DNA from: the human T2T-CHM13v2.0 reference genome, Homo sapiens
Length of the DNA stretch: 64,000 nt
Reading direction: 5' to 3' (one strand)
NCBI RefSeq assembly: GCF_009914755.1
Contig: NC_060935.1
Shown here: piece by piece, positions 14,550 to 55,570 of the stretch
Numbering within the stretch: position 1 is the stretch's first letter
Layout of the letters: each line of letters starts with the position of its first letter
Program-made: the position numbers and the translations under genes
Notes under the pieces: generated by a model
What the model was told of the DNA's origin: nothing
Seen by the model: only the letters and a program-made list of their open reading frames with translations
Database searches by the model: none

Positions 14550-16700
14550 GGGGATGGGTGCTGCTTTATCCGTCCAGGACTCCGTGCGTTGGGAAAATCA
14601 CGCCGCGAGGGGGCGCAAGAGCCGCGTACTCCAGAGCAAGAAGAAAAGGCTCGGGGATCCAGGCGGAGAGTCCAGGAGAAGAGCCGCCAGACTGCAGGGG
14701 CAGGTGGAAGGCGTGGCAGCTGGAAAAGTAGGGGTGGGGGCGCGGTCGTGAAGGGTGGGACTTCTGGAGCAACGCTGGGCGGGTTGGGGGCCGGTCGGAG
14801 CCGGACAGGCGGCTGGGAGGTGGGATGGGCGGGGCGCTTGGGAGCGAGATGGGGGGACAAGGGCGTGGCTACAGCTAAATTCGCCGCAGAGGGCGGGCGG
14901 GGAGGGGGAGGGAAGGGGAGGAGGCGTGGCCTGGGCGGGGAGTAGGGCGCGACGGACCCTTCAGTTAGCCCGCGGCTCCCCGGGCTCTCCCTGGCGCCGA
15001 GTCCCACCCCTTTCCCGGCCCAGAGAGTGTGCGTCTGCGTGCACCTGAGTGTCAGTGTGTACGAGAGTTTGTGAGTCCGAGGTTGCCATGTTGGAGCCCC
15101 TGGGCAGGAGGTGTTTCCGCGCGGAGGCTGGTGGCCCGCGGTGGACGCGGCGCCCTGGCTGCGAGTCTGCGGAGCTGAGCACGCTCAGCGGTTGTGTGTG
15201 TCTCAGCGACTCCCTGGGGGCAGCTCGGCCTGCTGGGCTCCCGAGGGACCTCTCTGGAGGGCCAGAGGGTCGCCTCAGTCTGCAAGTCCTCCAGCAGGCT
15301 TTTTCTTCTTCGGCTCCTCCCTGATTCCCTCCCACCACGCGGTTCCCAGGCTCGCGCACGCCCGGAGCCCACCCCCTCTTTTGGGCGCGAGGCCCCGCCC
15401 CCCGCCCCCTTGCCTCTGCCGCAAAGTTTATTTGCAACAAAAGGGTGCCAGGAGCGAGCAGCCAAGGGCGTTGGGCAGGCGGACGCAGAGTCGAGGAACC
15501 AAGCGCTGGGATCCCGCCCAGGCGGTGCCGCGGTGCCCCTGGTCGCTCCAGCCGCGGCGGGGGCTGGGCCTGGGGGTCGGCGCTGAGGCGGGAGGGGCCG
15601 CCCGGGATGGAGACGTTGCGGCCGGTGGCCACAGAAACTTGAGCCGCGGCAGAGAAACCTCTGCTCCGGTCTCTGCGTCCTCTTCCCACACTCCCGTGCG
15701 CTGCTTTCGGCGTGGGCCGCTGCGCTCCTAGGGAGTGGGGGCGCAGGGGGGGTTGGCCGCGGCTGCCCGAGGCCAGCCCCCCCGGAGTGAGTTACGCCAC
15801 TATGGCGGACGGGGCACCCCGGCCCCAGCTTTACCGCAGCGTCTCGTTCAAGCTGCTGGAGCGCTGGAGCGGCGGCCCCGGGCTGAGGGAGGAGGACACG
15901 GACACCCCCGGCTTGAGGCGACGCGCCTCGTGCCGGCCGACCACGGCTGCCCGGGGCCAGCCCTCTCGGCGCGTGTCCAAGCTGGCGTCTGGGCCCCTGG
16001 CCGCCCCCGCGCAGCCGCGCCCGCTCCGCAGCCTCTCGCCGTCGGTTCGCCAGCTCTCCCGGCGCTTCGACGCGCCGCGTCTGGACGACGGCTCCGCTGG
16101 GACCCGAGACGGAGGCGTCTTACCCGCGGCCGCGGAAGAAGCGGCCGAGGGCCCAGCGCGAGGAGCCTGGCCCAGCGTCACCGAGATGCGCAAGCTCTTC
16201 GGCGGTCCTGGCTCCAGGAGGCCCAGCGCCGACTCTGAATCCCCAGGAACGCCCAGCCCCGACGGTGCCGCGTGGGAGCCTCCGGCTCGGGAGTCGCGGC
16301 AGCCACCGACGCCACCCCCTCGGACATGCTTCCCCCTGGCGGGTCTGCGTTCGGCGCGGCCCCTGACCGGGCCGGAGACCGAAGGGAGGCTGCGCCGGCC
16401 GCAGCAGCAACAGGAGCGGGCGCAGCGTCCAGCGGATGGTTTACATTCTTGGCATATCTTCTCCCAACCGCAGGCCGGGGCCCGGGCCTCCTGCTCCTCC
16501 TCCTCCATCGCCGCCTCCTATCCTGTCAGCCGCAGTCGTGCTGCCAGCTCCAGCGAGGAGGAAGAGGAGGGCCCGCCGCAGCTGCCTGGAGCCCAGAGTC
16601 CGGCCTACCACGGCGGCCACTCCTCGGGCAGTGACGACGACCGAGACGGTGAGGGCGGCCACCGCTGGGGAGGGAGGCCCGGGCTCAGGCCTGGAAGCTC
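14550..16700. promoter_or_regulatory. CpG island: ARHGEF17 main promoter, 5'UTR and start of exon 1
   Basis: Dense CpGs, several GC boxes (gggcgg/ccgccc), G-run cluster 14891-14940; edges estimated by eye. Confidence 0.9.
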
Positions 16701-36920: not shown

Positions 36921-39492
36921 TAGGTTTTTTCAGTCTTTTGCTGTTACAAACTGCTGCAGTGAACAAGCTTGTTTGTAGGTCATTTCTTAGGAGTGCTAGG
37001 ATACAGGGTAAATGTGATTCTCATTTTGCTGCTGTCCATGGGGGTCTGCCATCAGCAGTAGGTTAGAGGCCCATTTCCCCACAATCTCACCAACTCAGAC
37101 CTTTGGGTATCTTCCCAATCTGATAGGTCTCAGTGTATTTTAATTTGTATTTATCTTATAATGAGTAAGGTTGAGCATCTTTTTCTATCTCCAAGAGACA
37201 TATGGATTCCCGTTTCTGTGAATGCTTCATATCCTTTGTCTATTTTTCTGTTGGGTTGTTGGCCTTTTGTTTTTATCAGTTTCTAGGAACCTTTTAAATA
37301 TTAGGGAAGTTAGTTCTTTGTCTGGCATATGAGTTGCAAATATTTTTTTCCTGATTTGTCACTTGACTTTTGACTTTGTTTATATTTTTACTATGCAGAA
37401 GGTTTTGTTGTTATGTGTTCTACTTTATCAAGCTTTTATTTTATTGCTTCTGGATTTGGAGTCATAGTTAGAAAGGCCTTTCCCACTCCAAGATTATAAA
37501 GTAATTCTCTCATATTTTTTCTCTGCTATTTTCAGTTTTCTTGTTTTATTTTACATTTAATTCCTTGATCGGTTTGGAATTTATCCTGGTGTGTAGTATG
37601 AGTTATGACTGCAACTCTTTTTTTTCTGGATGGTTGGTTTTAAGGTGAGGAATGACTTGGTCAGAATCTTTCTAGGGTGGGTGTGAAGGTCAGCTGAGGG
37701 GATCGAGGCTGTGGCTGTGGAGGGGCAGGGGCAGAGGGATGAACAGAAGGGCCTGGAGTGGCACCAGATAACTTGCTGGGCCCTGGAAGGTGGCATAACA
37801 TTCCCAAATTCCTTGTCTGTACTGTGTGACTTTGGGCAAGCCCCATCCCCTCTCTGGGCCTAGATTATCATAGCTGGAAGAGGCCCTGGACATCGCCCTG
37901 GCTGTCCTGGAGGTGGAGGCAGAGAGTAAGACTGTGGAGCTAGCGCCCACTCAGGCTTGGCCCAAGAAGATGGAGGGCTGGCAGCAGAATTCACTGTGTT
38001 CCTGGAGTGGGCAGGCAGGAAGGAGGAGAGGGGCAGGCACCCATTTAAAAATGCCCACTGCAGCCTGGCACAGCAGGTGGGGGTGGGGGCAGGCCCTCTG
38101 CCAGCCCTCTGGATCCAGGAAGGCCAGGGGTTTCTAGGGGTGGGCACATTACCTGCTGTCTCAGCACTGTGGGCCCAGCTATTACCATTCTTGGGGATCC
38201 TCTTCTCCCTACCGTGAGGCAGGCACCCTTGTCCTCTCCTTTAGAAAAATAGAGAAGCCAGAGTGGACAGACCACATCCCCCAGAACCTAGTCCTGCCAC
38301 TACCCTGGACTTGCTGTGTGACCTTGGATTGAGTCCCTGTTCCCTGGGGTCCCTATCCATCAAAGGGAGCACTGGCCTTGTCCTGGCTGTGTCCCATACC
38401 CCTAGCCCTTACCCATGTCTCGATTTGGATTAGAGGTAGAGAGATCTTAAGGCCCATGCCTCTCTCTCCCTCTTTTACAGATGGGGAAACTGAGGCCATG
38501 GAGGGGACCCTGGACCCCTGCCCTGCATTGCTCTTCTTGGCTTTCCTGGGCCCCTGGACCTTCCTCCCTGGCCCCAGCGTAGCCTATACCACCTCCCCTC
38601 CCCCACTCCTGGGCCCCAGTGGTCAAATTCCAGGGCTGTCATTGCCATGGCAACAGCCAGTTCACAGGGCCCCTCCTCTGGGGTTCTCCACCAGTCCTGT
38701 TGTCCAGGGAGGAGGCAGAAAGGGCCTCCCACCCCTGGGGGCCTGGAGGGTTGGGCGAGGGGGAGTGGGGGGGTGCGGGGGGAGGAGGTCAGACTCAGCT
38801 GGCTTCTCATTTGTTTTCCAAAGGAGAAAATGGAAAAGGCACAAAGTGCTGCCAACAAATGCTACTCTGTTGTCCTGGAGAGAGAGAGGGATAGAGGTGG
38901 TCACCTGGGCTGGGGACAAGAGAGCCACCTGGAAAACCTCTCCCAGCTCTCACCTGGAGAATCACCCCACAGAAGCATCAGAGCCCAAAGGATTTTTGAA
39001 TGGGAGGTGGAGGAAATTTCTTCCTGAGGTGACTGCTGTCCATTTCTAAGGCCACCCAGAGACTGAGGGGTCCAGCCCAGCATGGCTTTTTCTCAAGCAG
39101 ACATGCCCATAGTGAAAGGAGCTACCATGGCCCCATGGGAGGGGGAGCTTGTCAGCCCTGCGGATATGCCAGCGAGGGCTGCCAGGGAGGCCTGCCATGG
39201 AAGGAGGGTGCTTAAGCCAACCACTGACCCCTGAGGGGACCTGCCCTCTGAGATTCTGGTTATTCATAACAGCCAATATTTGTTGAACTCATGCTTTGTT
39301 CTGGGCACTGTGGGAAGTAAGCCCTCTATATTCTCTACTTTATAGATGGGGAAACTGAGGCACAGATGTGGTCTTCTGGAGGTCGGGAAGCCATCAGTGG
39401 AGAGTGGTCTCTGGCTCTACCCCTCTACCCACCTTTGTCCAGGGCCCCTGCCCACTGTTAATGTTCTGGTATATTTCCCTCCAGGCTTTTTC

Positions 39493-48432: not shown

Positions 48433-48748
48433 TTTTTTCTTTTTGAGATGGAGTTTCGCTGTTGTTGCCCAAGCTGGAGTGCAATGGTGCGACCTCAGCT
48501 CACCGCAACCTCAGCTCACCTCAACCTCCGCCTCCCGGGTTCAAGCTATTCTCCTGCCTCAGCCTCCCGAGTAGCTGGGATTACAGGCATGCGCCACCAC
48601 ACCTGGCTAATTTTGTATTTTTTTTTTTAATAGAGATGGGGTTTCTCCATATTGGTCAGGCTGGTCTCGAACTCCCAACCTCAGGTGATCTGCCCGCCTC
48701 AGCCTCCCAAAGTGCTGGGATTACAGGCGTGAGCTACCGCGCCCGCCC
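48433..48748 (-). mobile_element. Alu (AluS-like) with short internal duplication
   Basis: Flanking aaactggt TSD; cagctcaccgcaacct-cagctcacctcaacct duplication. Confidence 0.93.
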
Positions 48749-49209
48749 GAAACTGGTCTTAAAGGAAAAGAAAAAGCATTACTAGGAGAGGGAAAAGGCA
48801 TGGGCCAAGACCCTGAGGCAGGAGAGGGCATGGTCAGTTTCTGGAAGTTAAAACGGAAGTGGCTGGAGCACATCAAGCAAAGAGATGAGAGGAGTCGACA
48901 GATGGGCCTGGCTTGAGCTATGGGGTCAGGATGTCCACTGTGCAGGAAACTCAGGGGAAAGCAGGTTTGGGAGAAGGAGTCAGCTGGGGGCTTGGTGAGC
49001 GTGGCAGCGTGCAGCACACTAAAAGGCATGAAGTTGGCCAGGGCTGAGGCACAGCTGCAGGGTGCTTCAGAGCCCCCCCATCTTGCTGGGTGGGAGCTGG
49101 TGCAAAAGCAGGTTGCTCGCCCCCACCCCTCAGTCCAGATTGAGTCTAGGATAGGTTCTGCTGTCACTCTGGGCTTTCAAGCAGCACGTTATGAGGATCC
49201 TGCTTGGAG

Positions 49210-49354
49210 ACAGTCTAGGGGTGCACAGTCTAGGTACGGGAGCACAGTCTAGGGGTGGGAGCACAGTCTAGGGATGGGAGCACAGTCTAGGGGTGGGAGC
49301 ACAGTCTAGGGGTGGGAGCACAGTCTAGGAGTGGGAGCACAGTCTAGGGGTGGG
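49210..49354. repeat. Minisatellite, 19-bp unit agcacagtctaggggtggg, 6 full plus about 2 degenerate copies
   Basis: Full units start at 49241, 49260, 49279, 49298, 49317, 49336. Confidence 0.93.
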
Positions 49355-49779
49355 GCGGATGGACAGGGACAGGACTGGAACCCTCCAAGATGGTCCCAGG
49401 TATAGGACACAGGACAAGCTGGATCCGGGCAGGGGTAGGGATGATTCAAGGTGGGTGATTTGAGTGATAGCTGCCCTCCTTCAGGCCCAAGAGCTCCTCC
49501 CTTGGGTGGAAGACCAGGGATGTGTATGTGTGCACATCTCTAAATGTCCGAGCCTGGACATATGTGCCTGTTTCTGCTGGCAATAGTTATGTAAACACAG
49601 AAGCACTTGTCTGGGCGCAACGATGGATCATGTTCGTTTCTGTCAAGGTTCAGGTCTGTAAGGGACTGTGTTGATGTGGGTGCACTTGGCCTGACCCCCT
49701 TGTGCATACGGGTCCAGGCCTGAGGGCAGGTTTCCATGAACGTGGCCTATTCCGTGTAGGTGTGTTCGTGCCCCTGTGT

Positions 49780-50450
49780 GTGTCCCGTGCTCCGTGGCTC
49801 CTCGGTGGGAAGCTGCGTTCAGCGTGTGCCGGCGCTGGGTACAGGTGCGGACGGAAAGTACATGTCGGCGCCTTTGTCCACGGGTGTGCGCCGACTTGTG
49901 TCCTGGGGCGGGGGATGGGTCCGTGAGCGGACGCTGCCGCGTGGGGGAAGGGGCGGGTGCGAGGGCAGCCCAGAGCGTGCTGGGGGAGATGGGGCGGCGC
50001 GGAGAGGGCGGGGACCCTCCTCCCCACAACGGGGCCGCGCGCGCCTGGCTCGCCGGGCGCACTCCCAGCGCGGAGGAGGCAGCAGCGCCGCCGGCGGCCG
50101 GGCCGCAGCGCTCAGATCGACGCTGGAACTGACCACCGCGACCGCCACTGCGGCTGCCGCCGCGGCCGGGCTGAGCCCTTAGGGAGCGAGAGTGGGAGGC
50201 GGCCCCTGACTCCGCGCTGACCCCCGCCCCCCGCCCCGCCGCCACCCCGGCGCCCCCGCCCCAGCGGCTGGCCGGCCGCATGCTGCAGATGGTGAAGACC
50301 CTGGCCCAGTTCACCATCGCGCTGGAAGACATGCGCGATATGGGCCCAGCCGCCGCCTCCGGGGAGCCTGCCGGGGGCAGCAGCACTGACGCCGAGGAGC
50401 CTGGGGAGGCCCAGGTACGGGGAGGGGGAGGGGCAGCCAGGGACCTGGGC
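49780..50450. promoter_or_regulatory. Intronic CpG island, putative alternative ARHGEF17 promoter
   Basis: Very dense CpG, GC boxes (ggggcggg at several sites between about 49905 and 50015), followed by an ATG exon with a donor. Confidence 0.85.
50280..50414 (+). CDS. ARHGEF17: Putative alternative first coding exon of ARHGEF17 (45 aa, MLQMVKTLAQFTIALEDMRDM…EEPGEAQ)
   Basis: ATG inside the CpG island, coding-like codons (CTG, GTG, AAG, ACC, TTC, ATC), donor CAG|gtacgg in phase 0 matching exon 2. Confidence 0.72.
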
Positions 50451-53400
50451 CATGGCCTAGAACTCAGCCGACCCAGGAGCCAACCCAGGAGACGGTGGGG
50501 GGAGGGGAGGCATGGGGCGCAGGGACTCTCTGTGACCGGGGATGGAGACCTGGAGATTGCCGGTGAGGAACCCTGGCAGGCGGTGGTGTGGCTGGCAGGG
50601 CGCTGAGGGTCAAGGCCTGGTGGCACTCCGCTTGCAGAAGTGCCTGTAGAAGCTGAGGCTGTCGCCAGTGTTATCCTGGGTCCACAGGCTCAGGAAGGAG
50701 AGGTTTTCCCAGCCCTCCTCTTAGGCTTGAGGTGGCCCTGGTGTATGTGTGTGCTGGAAAGTAGAGTCAGTTTTGCACCCCCACTGCCATCCTCTCCCTG
50801 CCGCTGGGCCTGCTGGCCCTTGGAGGAGTCATGCTGCGGTGGGAACAGCAGCGTCCCCGTTCTCGCTCAGTGTGTGTACCCCTGCAGGGGAGGGGAGGCG
50901 TCTTGGGGCTGTTTCCCTGTCTTTGTGTGTCTCTGGGCCTGGACTCTGTGCCATGCTCCCGGCCCCAGTGGGGGCTGTAATTCTGTCCCCTCCCCGTGCA
51001 ATGATGTGTCTCTCCACAGCCTCAAGTCTCTGAGCTGGCGGGCCTGGTTCTCAGCTGCGTGACCTGGCTGCGTTTTTTATTTCTGTGTGGGGCGGCTTGC
51101 CTTTATGGCGTCTCTGTGTGCGTGTCTGTCTTCACACTGTGCCCGTCAGGGTTTCAGTCTTTGGGTTGTGATGCCCCAGTCATCCCAGGAGTGGCCCCCT
51201 CTGTCTTCCTGCTGTATCCCCCAGTGCCCACCTCAGTGCCCGGTGTAGCGAAGGTCTGGGGATGGGGCTGGTGAGGGATGAGGGGTGCTGTGGGGAGGCT
51301 GGGTGTGAAGGGCTGTTCTGCCTGGAACAGGTGGGCCTGCTGTTCAGGCTGACAGCTGCGCTGTCTGCCTCCTGCCTCCCCTGTCCACCCCCGCAACCCC
51401 CGCACACTACACCCGTGGTGGGCACGTGTAGAGGGCTGCTCGCGCAGTGACAGGGAGCTGGCCTTGTTTTCTGTGTCTTTACCTGACAGCTGAGTGACAG
51501 GCCGCTGTGCTCTGCCGCAGGGAGGAGGCTGGGAGAGGCGGGCATTTGCAGCGTCAGCCTCCCCGTGTCACCCCAGCCTCCCGGCATCAGGCACAGCGCC
51601 AGCCCTGCCTCTCAGGAAGCCTCCCTGACCATGACCATTGTGGTGCCCGCTGGGCCTGATGGGCCGTTGTGTGGGCGGGGGAGTGTGGCTGAGGGGCCCA
51701 GGGCCGCGCCTGGCCTGGCCCTGCTGTCAGGGAGCTCCCCACGCCGTCTCACTGAGGGGGAGAAAGGGTGGACACTGGTGACCTGCTGCGTGTGGACAGA
51801 GCTGCTCTGCTCGCTGCCGCCTTTGCCTTCACGGTGATGGGAGGGCGGGGTTATTAGCTCCATTTCATGGAAGAGAATGTGGAAACAGGGCCATTAGGTG
51901 ACACCACAGTCACACAGCCAGTAAGGGCAGTGCTGGGGACCTGTGGCCCGTGGCTGCCCAGTCAGTCTGGGCGAGAACTCCAGGGGCTGGGGCCCTGAGA
52001 GTCATGAGGTGGCTGAAGAGACCCTGGTCCTTGCTTTGCCACTCACAGGCTGTGTGATCTTGGACAAGTCATGTCACCTCTCTGACATGACCCCTCACCT
52101 GTGCAGTGGAAATGGCAACACCTGTGTCACAGAGCTGAGTGTGAGGCTGAAGCAAGACCATGTCTGTGGGGTGCTGAGATGTCCCTGGCGTGGGGTAGGG
52201 CAGGATTAGGCATCTGGGCCTGTCCTCGGGAGGCCTTCCTGGCCCTCCACGCTCTCCCAAGTCTCCATCCTACAGTGAGCCTTGCTCGCACTGCCTCCTT
52301 CTGGAAGCTGCCCTGGTTTTTTAGAGGTCACAAGAGTACCGAGGATAGATGGTCTGCTTGTCTCCAGAGGCTCTGAGGCTCTGGTCTGCTGTTTCCGGAG
52401 GCCCTGAGGTACCTTCCCACCCGTCAGAGCCCAGGGCTGGCAATGGTGGGCTGGCAAGGATGGGGAGAGCCAGCCCCCCTTCCTCCCTGCCCCAAGGGGT
52501 GTCCTTCACACCCCCACCACTGAGTTCCTAGCATGGGAGCTCACTTTTCTGAGTGTGCTTCATTATAGGACACTGTGGGGACAGGCCTTGCCCCTGAGTC
52601 CCTGGTCAGAGGGCAAGGGATCTGAAGTGGGTGTGCCACAAGCAGAGGGGGAGCAGTGGCTGGGTCAGGCAGGACAGGCCTGGGCTCAGGTCCACTAAAA
52701 CATGAGCCCTGGGCATAGCAGTGACCAGGACAGCCCCACTGGTTGAGTTCCTACCCTGAAGGACTAGAGGTGGAGGCTGGAGGGATGCCACAGACATGGA
52801 CACCCTGGCATTGCCATCTGCACAGCACTTGCTCGAACCAGTAAGCCTTGATGGCAGGAACCCGAGATACGGTCCACAGATGCTCAGGCCAAGCCGAGAC
52901 CTGGGAGGGGAGGGGAGAGAGGAGAATAACCCAGAGATCTGGAGCCTAGAGGAGTTAGGGGCCTTGCCCAGGATCACTCTAGGGCTTTAGAGGGGTCAGG
53001 AGTGGAGTCTAGGGGTCTAGGGCTTGGAGTGGAGTCTCTGCCAGAGAAGGGAAGTTGTTGGGGCTGGTGCTATCTGGGAAGGCTTCCTGGAGGTGGGGAT
53101 TTTGAGGGGAGAGGTGTAGGGACTGGTGGAGAGGAGCAGCAGGTAAGTTCAGTCCCAGGGGCTGAACACAAGGCATCCCAGACAGGGATGAGCACCCTGT
53201 GCCTGGGGGTGTGGGTGCAGAGGCTGTGTGACCCCTTGGGGACTCAGTAATTCAGGTCATCAGATCCATAGGTTGGAGGCATCGGTGTCTGGGTTTCCTT
53301 TTTCCCCTCCCTAACATGAAGAGAATAATAACATATACCTCACAGGGTGGCCAGGATTATTGAATAATATGTCATGCTTAGAACAGTGCCTGGCGCATAG

Positions 53401-54019
53401 GAGGGCATAGTTAATGTTTTTAAATGACAGAATTGGGATCCAGCCTTGTCTGAGACTGGCTGAACCCTGATACTGCCCAGCTGTGTGACCTTCAGCACTG
53501 ACTTCCCCTCTCTGGTCCACAGTGTCTTCCTCTGTAGCAGGGTGATGGTGTCTACTCTTAGGGATGGTGGGCAGCCCAGCCAGGTGGGCATGTCCCCATA
53601 GCACTGAGCCTGAAGTTGGGGTCTTCAGAGATGGCAGCTGGAGTGGGTGCTGGCCTGGAGGCATTGTTCTTTGCAAATGTGAAAGGTTATTGATTTTTTT
53701 AAAGACCCTTTTTCAATAGCCTGGCAGAGGAGCCAAGAAGTGGGTGGATGGGGCAGGGGCAGAGGAGTGAGTGCCTAACTGTGCAAGGCCACGTGTTTGA
53801 GGTGTAAGTCGGGGGCAGGGGGAGCAGCTGAGCAAAGACCTGGCAGAGTGGAGGGCCTGGGGGCCTCGGGGGAACAGCCCGGAGCCCTGGGCGGCAGGAG
53901 GGAAGGGCCAGGAGGGCAGGGAGAGGGTGTGGGCGGGTTCTCTGGGCACCATGTGGCTACAGGTGATGGGGTCTGGGGGGAAAAAGACCCCTGTTCACCC
54001 TCTGCTCCTGTCCCCACAG

Positions 54020-54097
54020 GACATGCGGAAGCACGTGGCCATGACCCTGCTGGACACAGAGCAGTCGTATGTGGAGTCGCTGCGCACCCTGATGCAG
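54020..54097 (+). CDS. ARHGEF17: ARHGEF17 exon 2, DH domain start (DMRKHVAMTLLDTEQSYVESLRTLMQ)
   Basis: ctcctgtccccacAG|…CAG|gtgggg; DH CR1 motif TExxYV. Confidence 0.96.
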
Positions 54098-55570
54098 GTG
54101 GGGCTCGGGGCCCACTCCCCTGAGAATGGCCTTTCTGAGCCTAGGAGGCTGTCAGATGGGTGTGAGCAAACCCCTTTCATGGACAAGGGACTGAGGCCAG
54201 AGAGCCGTGTCCCTGGCATCCGTCGCCTTTCCATGAAGAACCCCCAGCATGGCCATTCCAGAGAAGGAGGAAGGCTTCTCCCGGGCAAGAGAGAATGCAG
54301 AGGGGCCAGGCCACCCCAGGGCAGGCGTCCCTACCCTGCTGTTCTTCCACGTCCCCCTGGCAACCCTGACCCTGAACTTAGATCCGTGAACTCCCTCTGA
54401 TGTGCCGCCTCCATTGTATTCACTGACTGGGAAGTATGAGTTGAATAGAGTTCAGTATTGAGCACCTGCTGTGTGCAGGCCCTGTTCCAGGTGCAGGAGA
54501 CACAGGAATGAATAAGAGAGCCCAGCCCCTGCCACAGGAGCTCACCGCCCTGCTGAGTACGTAGTGGAGTATACGGGCACTCTAGAAACATCGAGGGGCA
54601 CCTGCTAAGCGTGGGGTCAGGGAGGTTTCCTGGAGGAGGTGCTCACTTCCACCATGACCTGTCTTCTCAACAGCAGGAATAGCACATTGCAAAGCCAAGT
54701 GAGGCCTGGCACATTCGGAGGTCTACGTGGCCAGCACAGAGCACAACGCGCTGGTCCCATAGCTATGCTGTCGGAGTCGGCAGAGGCCACGCTGTGGGGG
54801 CCTAGAACACCAGTTGGAGGCAGTAGATTCTGCCAGGGTCCGTGGATGATCAGCGAAGGGCTTTGAGCAGGGGAGGTGTGTGGCCTGATTCATGCTTCAT
54901 GAAGTCTGTCTGACAGCTGGGAAGGTGGGTGGCAGAAGAGGAGGTCAAGGCCATTGAGATCCGGCAAGGATAGAGGTTACAGGAAGGGAGTGCTGGGGAC
55001 AGACACTCAGGAAGTGGACTGGTCAGGCCAGGCGTGGTAACTGGTTGGTTGTGGGGGGCAAGGTGGGGAAGCCCAAGATGATGTCTGGGCTCCTGGCCTC
55101 GGATAGGTGGGGCCCAGGGGAGAAGCACAACTGGAGCAAGGTGGTGAGTTCAGGCTCAGACATGAACCTGGGAAGGCCCACAGCCTGGATGCACACATGG
55201 CCTGGGGCTGGATGAGTGTGGACCTGAGCTGAAGTGGGGCCTGGCAGTCACCATTGAGGATGAATTTGCCCAAGCTAGCTGGGCAGAGTGACAGCAAAGG
55301 GTAAAGGTAGAACCTTCACCCTATGGAAACATCCAGAGCATTCACTCACTCACCATTCATTCATTCATTCACTCACTCCACAAATCCACGGTGAGCCCCT
55401 TCTGCGCTCCAGGTAGTGTTCTCTGTGCAGGGGCATTAGTGGTAAGGGCCTGTCTCCTGGAGCTCACGGTCTATGGCAGAGACTGACAGTGACCAGCCAG
55501 ACATCAACACACAGTGGCATGTGGTGATGCAGAAGTGCACACACAGAGAACCTACACACAACAGGGATAC

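What the first reader, a model, noticed from the sequence alone, without database searches (positions are those of the whole stretch)
49780..54097. Internal CpG-island promoter and alternative first exon predict a short ARHGEF17 lacking the 1064-aa N-terminus
Seen: a separate CpG island 31 kb into intron 1, containing ATG 50280, 45 codons and CAG|gtacgg, in phase with exon 2 (…EEPGEAQ|DMRKHVAM…). There are four in-frame Mets (1, 4, 18, 21), the last in strong Kozak context. Residues 1-18 (MLQMVKTLAQFTIALEDM) have amphipathic-helix spacing and are followed by a Gly/Ala/Glu linker. Inference: an isoform retaining DH-PH and the C-terminus but swapping the actin-binding, 14-3-3 and LATS-site region for a short helix, and so with different localisation and regulation. 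Many Dbl GEFs are controlled by a helix just upstream of the DH domain. It also skips most of the long intron. It may already exist as a predicted transcript; I could not check.
Basis: partly seen in the sequence, partly recalled or inferred. Interest (0 to 1): 0.8.

Follow-up and report, generated by a model that had tools for sequence, protein, structure and literature searches.

The report
Conserved alternative first exon of ARHGEF17
A CpG island deep in the first intron of the human RhoA activator gene ARHGEF17 carries a small coding exon, conserved from fish to mammals, that would start a half-length protein with a new 20-residue helix in place of the actin-binding half.

Summary
Window 49701-50400 is a CpG island (GC 0.74, CpG o/e 0.87; rest of intron 1: 0.16). 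ATG 50280 opens 45 codons that end at CAG|GTACGG, in phase 0 with exon 2.

The ORF-plus-donor pattern alone is not special: 9 such arrangements lie in intron 1. Conservation decides it. Of 194 proteins fetched, 102 carry MLQMV(K/R)TLAQF(T/S)IALE(D/E)M. Thirty-three are spliced straight to the DH-domain exon, and 25 of those start at Met1. They include macaque "isoform X6", pig, bat, birds, turtle, lizards and ten teleosts. Mammal-teleost identity is 76% in the helix, 80% in the DH domain and 13% in the linker.

Two unnamed short contigs from other species carry the spliced junction. No human transcript could be checked, and human RefSeq has one transcript, without this exon.

What the helix does is open. 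AlphaFold2 gave no confident docking on the DH domain.

cg20864214, a top Alzheimer Braak-stage hypermethylated CpG, maps into this island.

Verdict: a real, ancient alternative 5' exon. It is predicted in other species, absent from human RefSeq, and not mentioned in the papers I searched.

The parts
49701..50400 (.). CpG island in ARHGEF17 intron 1, the presumed internal promoter
   Evidence: 700 bp, GC 0.74, CpG o/e 0.87, 82 CpGs. The rest of intron 1 has o/e 0.163. GC boxes: GGGCGG at 49906, 49951, 49992, 50006 and CCGCCC at 50224, 50231, 50256. Promoter activity itself is inferred, not shown.
49992..50279 (+). ATG-free leader upstream of the start codon, a candidate 5'UTR and start-site zone
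   Evidence: The last upstream ATGs are at 49862 and 49989. There is an in-frame TGA at 50172-50174. The start-site position is unknown.
50227..50349 (.). Interval into which array probe cg20864214 (hg19 chr11:73,054,121) maps
   Evidence: GREAT offsets ARHGEF17 +34788 and RELT -33187 (PMC7704686, Table 2) were added to the annotated starts at 15439 and 83536. They give 50227 and 50349. A CpG lies at 50225-50226. This assumes collinearity of hg19 and T2T; the probe sequence was not checked.
50280..50339 (+). Codons 1-20 of exon 1b: the conserved helix MLQMVKTLAQFTIALEDMRD
   Evidence: Positions 4, 5, 7, 9, 10, 11 and 13-16 are invariant in 90 of 90 helix-bearing proteins. Mammal identity to bird/reptile/teleost is 95/88/76%. 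Predicted as helix 2-19 in both AlphaFold2 runs, at low confidence.
50340..50414 (+). Codons 21-45 of exon 1b: a poorly conserved Gly/Ala/Ser/Glu linker
   Evidence: Mammal identity to bird/reptile/teleost is 23/22/13%. Length varies between species.
50415..50420 (+). 5' splice site GTACGG after CAG
   Evidence: 7 of 9 consensus positions, within the range of the annotated donors. In 66 read-through ORFs from other species the residue after the exon end is Val (GTN), as expected if the GT is kept.
50415..54019 (+). Intron between exon 1b and exon 2 (3605 nt)
   Evidence: Follows from the donor at 50414/50415 and the annotated acceptor at 54019/54020.
54020..54097 (+). Annotated exon 2, start of the DH domain region, shared by both forms
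   Evidence: Hub annotation; sequence. In short models the Pfam RhoGEF domain begins 9-10 residues into this exon (residues 54-57 of the short protein).
50263..50264 (+). Candidate in-frame acceptor AG (cccag|CGG, exon from 50265)
   Evidence: Pyrimidines 15 of 20 upstream but no T. It would allow use as a cassette exon. Not shown to be used.
50287..50288 (+). Candidate in-frame acceptor AG (ctgcag|ATG, exon from Met4 at 50289)
   Evidence: Pyrimidines 11 of 20. The NCBI tinamou model P0082 (1705 aa) joins exon 1 to ...MVRTLAQF... at the equivalent point.

Best explanation
Window 50280-50414 is a genuine alternative 5' coding exon of ARHGEF17 ('exon 1b'), kept by selection.

It lies in its own CpG island, 34.8 kb downstream of the annotated start site. 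Transcripts that begin in the island splice from 50414 to exon 2 at 54020. They encode a protein of about 1044 residues: 45 new residues followed by residues 1065-2063 of the known protein (DH, PH and beta-propeller).

This short form lacks all of exon 1. It therefore lacks the F-actin-binding domain (residues 81-135) and residues 667-1064 of the Mps1-binding central domain.

Its first 20 residues form a helix as conserved as the catalytic domain. The remaining 25 are a variable acidic/glycine linker that runs into the first DH helix.

Shown here:
- the sequence anatomy;
- protein-level conservation from teleosts to mammals;
- use as the first coding exon in many gene models;
- use in unnamed short contigs of other species whose frame is already spliced (cDNA-like).

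Inferred:
- that the island is the promoter;
- that humans use it;
- what the helix does.

My committed reading of the helix: it is a docking or targeting module that replaces actin binding and gives the short form its own place and partners (about 0.45). Less likely are intramolecular control of the DH domain (about 0.2) and self-association through its a/d heptad pattern (about 0.15).
For: Anatomy: (see observation check).

Conservation:
Of these, 33 are spliced to DMR[KR]HV, 66 are unspliced read-through ORFs with Val right after the exon end, and 3 are other.
- Of the 33 spliced, 25 start at Met1, 4 start at Met4, and 4 have the helix internal.
- Named short models:
  - mammals: Macaca fascicularis isoform X6, Sus scrofa, Eschrichtius, Galemys, Phyllostomus (a cluster of 54 members), Prionailurus isoform X1;
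  - birds: Ficedula, Cairina, Taeniopygia and others;
  - reptiles: Chelydra, Anolis, Podarcis;
  - teleosts: Aldrovandia, Brachyhypopomus, Phoxinus, Scleropages, Larimichthys isoform X2, Coregonus, Lucifuga, Dissostichus, Nothobranchius.
- Region identities, mammal vs bird/reptile/teleost: helix 95/88/76%, linker 23/22/13%, DH 88/83/80%.
- Translations upstream of Met1 and downstream of the donor diverge freely between species. Conservation is therefore bounded by the proposed exon.

Transcript-like evidence: P0009 (277 aa, 4678-nt contig) and P0041 (158 aa, 1153-nt contig) run from the helix through several DH exons. P0166 is a complete 1055-aa teleost frame on a 6646-nt contig that starts at Met1.

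Domains: short models keep RhoGEF, PH_19 and WD40_2.

Consequence of losing exon 1: an engineered N-terminally deleted TEM4 was diffuse in the cytoplasm and activated RhoC poorly (PMC3404065, passages). The Mps1-binding domain is aa 667-1306 (PMC4792069, passages).

The island is methylation-variable in people:
- cg20864214 maps into it. It is 7th of the top 20 Braak-stage CpGs in a prefrontal-cortex meta-analysis (P 2.1e-14, hypermethylated in all four cohorts).
- It also appears in a hippocampus study, in MS CD8+ cells and among intracranial-aneurysm SMR loci.
Against: - No human start-site, junction or peptide data could be consulted. The human RefSeq annotation supplied with the finding has a single ARHGEF17 transcript, without this exon.
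- Among all hits, the only one 100% identical to human is the unspliced read-through ORF P0001. No human-identical spliced frame was found.
- Western blots in several human and rodent cell lines were reported to show only the 222-kDa protein (PMC3404065, passage). From the passages I read, I do not know whether the antibody's epitope is present in the short form.
- Met1 has a weak context (C at -3, C at +4).
- Many supporting models are automatic predictions, and some are visibly faulty (P0015, P0060, P0068).
- Four models place the helix inside a longer protein.
- Helix function: AlphaFold2 with a 60-sequence alignment gave pLDDT 35-38 for residues 1-20, against block means of 77-96 for the well-modelled parts of the DH domain. 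It therefore shows no confident packing.
- Non-amniote tetrapods: no amphibian model with the helix was seen among the listed hits.
Confidence: 0.8

Rival explanations
1. Exon 1b is mainly an internal cassette exon. It would be spliced between exon 1 and exon 2, using the in-frame acceptor at 50264/50265 or 50288/50289. This would insert the helix and linker just before the DH domain of the full-length protein, rather than starting a short protein.
For: - The NCBI tinamou model P0082 (1705 aa) joins exon 1 to ...MVRTLAQF... at the point equivalent to ctgcag|ATG.
- P0057 (1798 aa) and the Myotis model P0015 also place the helix internally.
- Both human candidate acceptors are in frame.
- Gln3 (CAG in human), whose AG would supply that acceptor, is kept in 81 of 84 sequences.
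Against: - 29 of 33 spliced models start at Met1 or Met4.
- The frames of P0009 and P0166 begin at Met1 on contigs long enough to hold upstream sequence.
- The human acceptors are weak. One has 15/20 pyrimidines but no T; the other has 11/20. Annotated acceptors have 12-17/20 with 4-6 T.
- Sequence upstream of Met1 is not conserved at protein level.
- The three internal placements use three different upstream junctions, as predictor artefacts would.
- A cassette exon does not explain the CpG island.
Confidence: 0.08
2. The exon is real and used in other vertebrates but is silent or vestigial in humans. The ORF and island would be retained only because too little time has passed, or because the island now serves another role such as an enhancer or the start of an unannotated non-coding RNA.
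For: - Human RefSeq has no such transcript (hub annotation).
- No human-identical spliced frame appeared among the hits.
- Only p222 was reported on blots.
- Human carries a lineage-specific L21M change.
Against: - The human ORF, donor, phase and CpG island are all intact.
- A CpG island with o/e 0.87 inside an intron at 0.16 implies that it stays unmethylated in the germ line.
- The helix is unchanged in human.
- Macaque has an NCBI model with the junction.
Confidence: 0.07
3. This is a chance open frame in an orphan CpG island. GC-rich DNA has few stop codons, and the in-phase donor is a coincidence.
For: Nine ATG / open frame / in-phase donor arrangements occur in intron 1 by the same mechanical scan. 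Several other long ORFs cross the island on both strands.
Against: Near-invariance of 20 residues from teleosts to mammals, with sharp loss of conservation on both sides. The genome holds only this one copy, so it is not a repeat.
Confidence: 0.02

Closest known systems
Predicted short ARHGEF17 isoforms in other species' annotations (e.g. NCBI Macaca fascicularis 'isoform X6', Larimichthys crocea 'isoform X2', UniProt/Ensembl models for pig, zebra finch, anole)
   Same: Same first coding exon, same junction to the DH exon, same domain content.
   Different: They are automatic models in other species. The human RefSeq set given with the finding has no counterpart. I found no paper that describes the isoform. 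I could not check its status in human GENCODE/Ensembl.
p164-RhoGEF / KIAA0337 (1510-aa ARHGEF17)
   Same: A shorter ARHGEF17 once treated as a full-length protein.
   Different: It is an N-terminal truncation within exon 1, resting on an incomplete cDNA (PMC3404065, passage). It has no exon 1b and no new helix.
Engineered GFP-deltaN TEM4 and DH-PH fragments (Mitin et al. 2012)
   Same: They lack the actin-binding N-terminus. They show what loss of exon 1 does: diffuse cytoplasmic protein and weak RhoC activation in cells.
   Different: They are artificial constructs without the conserved 20-residue helix, so they do not test what the natural short form does.
Dbl-family GEFs regulated by a helix N-terminal to the DH domain (Vav acidic-region helix, Tim/ARHGEF5-type helix; recalled, not from a call)
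   Same: A short helix placed a few tens of residues before the DH domain.
   Different: No sequence likeness was found: no Pfam hit for the 45-mer, and no solved structure that aligns residues 1-18 of the helix. AlphaFold2 did not place the helix on the DH domain with any confidence.

Membership tests
CpG island (Takai-Jones type criteria) | At least 500 bp with GC >= 0.55 and CpG observed/expected >= 0.65 | tested here: met
   49701-50400: 700 bp, GC 0.74, o/e 0.87. Intron background is 0.163.
Alternative first exon driven by an internal promoter | Transcription start sites of its own | not testable with these tools
   No CAGE, chromatin or RNA data are available here. Only the CpG island and GC boxes point to a promoter.
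Alternative first exon driven by an internal promoter | 5' splice site joined to a shared downstream exon, reading frame kept | tested here: met
   CAG|GTACGG, 7/9 consensus, phase 0 with exon 2. The junction is present in 33 spliced proteins of other species.
Alternative first exon driven by an internal promoter | Transcripts whose coding frame begins in the exon, with no upstream exon in frame | tested here: inconclusive
   P0009, P0041 and P0166 are spliced frames on short unnamed contigs that start at Met1 or Met4. Their DNA could not be fetched, and none is human.
Protein-coding exon under purifying selection | Amino-acid conservation far above the flanks and comparable to known domains | tested here: met
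   Helix 95/88/76% against DH 88/83/80% and linker 23/22/13%. Flanking translations diverge. Synonymous rates were not testable, as no orthologous DNA was available.
Dbl-family RhoGEF (the product) | DH (RhoGEF) domain followed by a PH domain | tested here: met
   PF00621 at E about 1e-44 and PF19057 at E about 1e-21 in the short models P0033, P0005, P0058 and P0166.
Autoinhibitory pre-DH helix (Vav/Tim type) | The helix packs on the GTPase-binding face of the DH domain | tested here: inconclusive
   AlphaFold2 on P0009 with 60 sequences gave helix 2-19 at pLDDT 35-38 and no confident placement. The paired-chain prediction was never accepted by the queue.

The most novel reading that the evidence does not exclude
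ARHGEF17 would be two genes in one. A long, actin-bound RhoA activator comes from the annotated promoter. An ancient short form comes from the intronic CpG island, and its invariant N-terminal helix sends the same DH-PH-propeller core to a different partner or compartment.

On this reading, cg20864214 is not a 'gene body' mark. That probe is reported as hypermethylated in Alzheimer cortex and hippocampus and is tied to intracranial-aneurysm loci. It would instead mark the promoter of the short form, so those disease signals would report silencing of one specific isoform.
Probability: 0.25. Interest if true: 0.75.

Novelty: new member of a known kind. Interest (0 to 1): 0.55.

Why it matters
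- Functional work on ARHGEF17/TEM4 treats it as one 222-kDa actin-bound protein. That work covers stress fibres, junctions, the spindle checkpoint, bile canaliculi and aneurysm risk. A second product would change how it is read. Depending on the target site, knock-downs, knock-outs, antibodies and variants hit one form or both. The second product would lack actin binding and part of the Mps1-binding region, but would carry a 20-residue helix as conserved as the catalytic domain.
- It gives a concrete, testable meaning to a replicated epigenome-wide signal. cg20864214 is currently labelled as ARHGEF17 body or RELT-proximal.
- It points to a gap in human RefSeq for a feature that pipelines already predict in macaque, birds and fish.

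Tried and rejected
- **Chance test.** The ORF/donor scan of intron 1 gave 9 candidates, so I dropped that pattern as evidence.
- **Whole short protein fold.** AlphaFold2 on P0033 (1055 aa, 15 sequences) failed, with mean pLDDT 31.9. The model was not used.
- **Paired-chain prediction.** Every attempt was turned back because the queue was full, so the job never ran and says nothing.
- **Family and similarity searches for the 45-mer.**
  - ESM Atlas: no usable hit.
  - Pfam: none.
  - Rfam on 48500-54500: none.
  - The bacterial promoter/terminator scan found nothing and is not relevant to a human gene.
- **Exhaustive phmmer with the 45-mer.** It gave 20 hits. Three (P0073-P0075) are low-complexity or repeat matches and were dropped. 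It added reptile-like read-through ORFs but nothing outside ARHGEF17.
- **Human genome search.** Only the self match was found, so there is no paralogous copy.
- **Literature.**
  - 'ARHGEF17' + 'isoform': 82 papers, 25 listed. In the four I opened, no passage concerns a short ARHGEF17.
  - 'ARHGEF17' + 'alternative promoter': 2 papers, both irrelevant.
  - Peptide TLAQFTIALEDMR: 0 papers.
  - 'ARHGEF17' + '14-3-3' + 'LATS': listing only, not followed.
- **Methylation probes outside the island.** cg18875674 (hg19 73,026,651) and cg13422045 (73,021,272) lie elsewhere in the gene and were set aside.
- **Unavailable sources.** The Biochem J p164-RhoGEF paper is not held.
- **Considered from memory only, not tested.**
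  - An AKAP-like or LD-like amphipathic motif; the helix fits neither pattern cleanly.
  - N-terminal acetylation of a Met-Leu start.
- **Supplements.** I did not open the Supplementary Data of PMC7704686. They may list further probes or a DMR in the island.


Full report
**Observation**

- ATG at 50280 opens 45 codons (MLQMVKTLAQFTIALEDMRDMGPAAASGEPAGGSSTDAEEPGEAQ) that end at 50414, in front of GTACGG.
- Annotated exon 2 begins at 54020, behind a good polypyrimidine tract and cacag.
- Exon 1 coding is exactly 1064 codons and ends ...SKPQV. Exon 1 and the new exon therefore both meet exon 2 in phase 0.
- The donor matches 7 of 9 consensus positions. The seven annotated donors of the gene in this window match 5-7.
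- An in-frame TGA lies at 50172. No ATG lies between 49992 and 50279.

The exon sits at the 3' edge of a 700-bp CpG island, 49701-50400 (GC 0.74, CpG o/e 0.87, 82 CpGs). The rest of the 35-kb intron has o/e 0.163. By the stricter criteria only two other stretches of at least 300 bp in the window qualify. They adjoin each other at the annotated promoter and exon 1.

**Is it more than chance?**

By anatomy alone, no. A mechanical scan of intron 1 looked for an ATG, at least 20 open codons and an in-phase donor of at least 7/9. It returned 9 candidates. This is the only one with a CpG-island-like neighbourhood (local o/e 0.74; the others 0.00-0.33). The island also carries other long ORFs on both strands. 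The case rests on comparison with other species.

**Cross-species evidence**

Searches run:
- The 45-residue peptide against proteins of 80-2000 aa gave 68 hits among 81 candidates.
- The same peptide against proteins of 24-79 aa gave 16 of 16.
- An exhaustive phmmer gave 20 hits. Three are repeat artefacts.
- The first 120 residues of a mammalian short model gave 148 hits among 186 candidates, of which 120 were listed.

Of the 194 proteins held at the end, 102 carry the helix:
- 33 are spliced to the exon 2 sequence DMR[KR]HV;
- 66 are unspliced read-through ORFs in which the residue after the exon end is Val (GTN), consistent with a kept GT donor;
- 3 are faulty (a mis-joined Myotis model, a frameshifted ORF and a chimera).

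Of the 33 spliced proteins:
- 25 begin at Met1 and 4 at Met4;
- 4 have the helix internal. Two of these are upstream ORF extensions (P0020, P0163). The other two join it to exon 1 (P0057, P0082).

Named short models:
- Mammals: Macaca fascicularis 'isoform X6', pig, gray whale, Pyrenean desman, a bat that represents a cluster of 54 sequences, and Iriomote cat 'isoform X1'.
- Birds: many species.
- Reptiles: Chelydra, Anolis, Podarcis.
- Teleosts: Aldrovandia, Brachyhypopomus, Phoxinus, Scleropages, Larimichthys 'isoform X2', Coregonus, Lucifuga, Dissostichus, Nothobranchius.

No amphibian model with the helix was among the listed hits. This is not evidence of absence.

**Pattern of conservation**

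- Positions 4, 5, 7, 9, 10, 11 and 13-16 are invariant in 90 of the 90 helix-bearing proteins tallied.
- The only common change is K6R.
- Mammal identity to bird/reptile/teleost is 95/88/76% for residues 1-20, 23/22/13% for the linker and 88/83/80% for the DH domain.
- In read-through ORFs, the translation upstream of Met1 and downstream of the donor differs freely between species. Constraint starts at about the ATG and stops at the splice site.
- The exon therefore predates the split of ray-finned fish and tetrapods. My recollection, not from a call, puts that split at roughly 430 million years.

**Transcript-like evidence**

Two unnamed proteins lie on short contigs and run from the helix across several DH-domain exons: P0009 (277 aa, 4678-nt contig) and P0041 (158 aa, 1153-nt contig). 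P0166 is a complete 1055-aa teleost frame on a 6646-nt contig and begins at Met1.

Such frames can only come from spliced RNA. That they begin at the helix argues for first-exon use. I could not fetch the contig DNA, and none is human.

The only hit 100% identical to human is the unspliced ORF P0001.

**The product**

Short models keep RhoGEF (from about residue 54), PH_19 and the WD40-type propeller. The closest solved DH domains are BCR and ECT2, and no solved structure aligns residues 1-18 of the helix.

The human short form would be 45 + 999 = 1044 residues. What it loses:
- the F-actin-binding domain at residues 81-135, and the whole 1-582 region that is necessary and sufficient for actin localisation (PMC3404065, passages);
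- residues 667-1064 of the Mps1-binding central domain, which spans 667-1306 (PMC4792069, passages).

An engineered N-terminal deletion was diffuse in the cytoplasm and activated RhoC poorly. A natural short form without a replacement targeting device would therefore be expected to be weak. This makes the strongly conserved helix the obvious candidate for that device.

**What the helix does**

This is inference.
- Both AlphaFold2 runs predict helix 2-19. The first run is unusable (mean pLDDT 31.9).
- In the second run (P0009 with 60 sequences, mean pLDDT 65.4), large parts of the DH domain have block-mean pLDDT of 77-96, but residues 1-20 score 35-38. There is no support for stable packing on the DH domain, and no strong evidence against it either.
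- The hydrophobic moment is modest: 0.33, reached by 354 of 5000 shuffles. The a/d positions M1 M4 L8 F11 L15 M18 are all hydrophobic.
- Polar positions (T7, Q10, E16) are invariant as well. This fits a helix buried in a specific partner or in an oligomer better than a generic membrane-binding helix.
- My ranking: partner or compartment docking about 0.45, DH control about 0.2, self-association about 0.15.
- The paired-chain prediction that might have helped never got into the queue.

- Met21, in the strong context, is confined to the human-identical sequence (1 of 90). The macaque model has Leu. It is a recent change, not a conserved start. If it were used, it would delete the helix.
- Met1 has a weak context. 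Some mammals and fish models start at Met4. Met1 or Met4 are therefore the plausible starts.
- I did not verify the 14-3-3 and LATS statements (listing only).

**Rivals**

- **Cassette exon.** Use between exon 1 and exon 2 is possible. Two in-frame AGs exist, at 50264 and 50288. The NCBI tinamou model uses the equivalent of the second. But the human acceptors are weak. The three 'internal' models use three different junctions. And 29 of 33 spliced models start in the exon. I give 0.08 to this as the main use. It may coexist with first-exon use.
- **Silent in humans.** 0.07.
- **Chance ORF.** 0.02.

**Link to methylation studies**

Probe cg20864214 (hg19 chr11:73,054,121) is annotated ARHGEF17 +34788 / RELT -33187 (PMC7704686, Table 2, read in full). 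Added to the annotated starts at window 15439 and 83536, these offsets give 50227 and 50349. Both lie inside the island and exon 1b, and a CpG sits at 50225-50226. This mapping assumes collinearity of the assemblies.

Where the probe appears:
- It ranks 7th among the 20 most significant Braak-stage CpGs in prefrontal cortex (P 2.1e-14, hypermethylated in all four cohorts).
- It appears in a hippocampus Alzheimer study (PMC6585076, passage).
- It appears among CD8+ T-cell differences in multiple sclerosis, together with cg16017089 (PMC4348521, passage).
- It appears among methylation loci colocalised with unruptured intracranial aneurysm, there attributed to RELT (PMC13019052, passage).

None of the passages I read interprets the site as a promoter. 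This shows that methylation of the island varies in human tissues. It does not show that the island is a promoter.

**Known or new?**

As a kind of thing, this is ordinary: an alternative promoter giving an N-terminally different isoform of a Dbl-family GEF. The isoform already exists as an automatic prediction in several species. It is absent from the human RefSeq annotation supplied. It is not mentioned in the ARHGEF17 papers whose passages I read. My searches did not retrieve it: 'ARHGEF17' with 'isoform' (82 papers, 25 listed), 'ARHGEF17' with 'alternative promoter' (2, irrelevant), and the peptide (0). I could not check human GENCODE. I file it as a new member of a known kind.

**Verdict**

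This is a real, ancient, selectively maintained alternative 5' coding exon (confidence 0.8). Human usage and helix function remain to be shown. Interest 0.55. It is not surprising in kind. It is notable for the depth and sharpness of its conservation, for what it implies for reading ARHGEF17 experiments, and for the link to a replicated disease-associated methylation site.

Noticed in passing
window 50340-50342 (codon 21 of exon 1b): Human has Met where other mammals have Leu and birds Ile: 1 of 90 sequences. This creates a fourth in-frame ATG, in the strongest Kozak context of the four. A start there would skip the conserved helix.
   Followed up: partly
window 49219-49354: A tandem array of a 19-bp unit (GGGAGCACAGTCTAGGGGT), 7.2 copies, 93% matches, about 350 bp upstream of the CpG island.
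   Followed up: no
window 38456-39028, + strand: A 191-codon ATG-initiated open frame in intron 1 that ends at an in-phase GAG|GTGACT donor. It has no Pfam match and a CpG-poor neighbourhood. It is probably chance.
   Followed up: partly
window 49643-50332, - strand: A 229-codon ORF runs antisense across the CpG island and over the start of exon 1b. This is expected in 75% GC DNA. It was not examined further, and whether the island also fires antisense is unknown.
   Followed up: no
bird models P0054, P0065, P0066, P0098 and others: Many homology-based bird models extend exon 2 upstream into '...VSFPPGQ|DMRKHV'. This looks like the polypyrimidine tract and cag of the intron read as protein. 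It is a recurrent annotation artefact at this junction.
   Followed up: no
window 51400-51800: A second GC-rich stretch (GC 0.66-0.71 in 200-bp windows) inside the exon 1b-exon 2 intron. It did not pass the CpG-island criteria.
   Followed up: no
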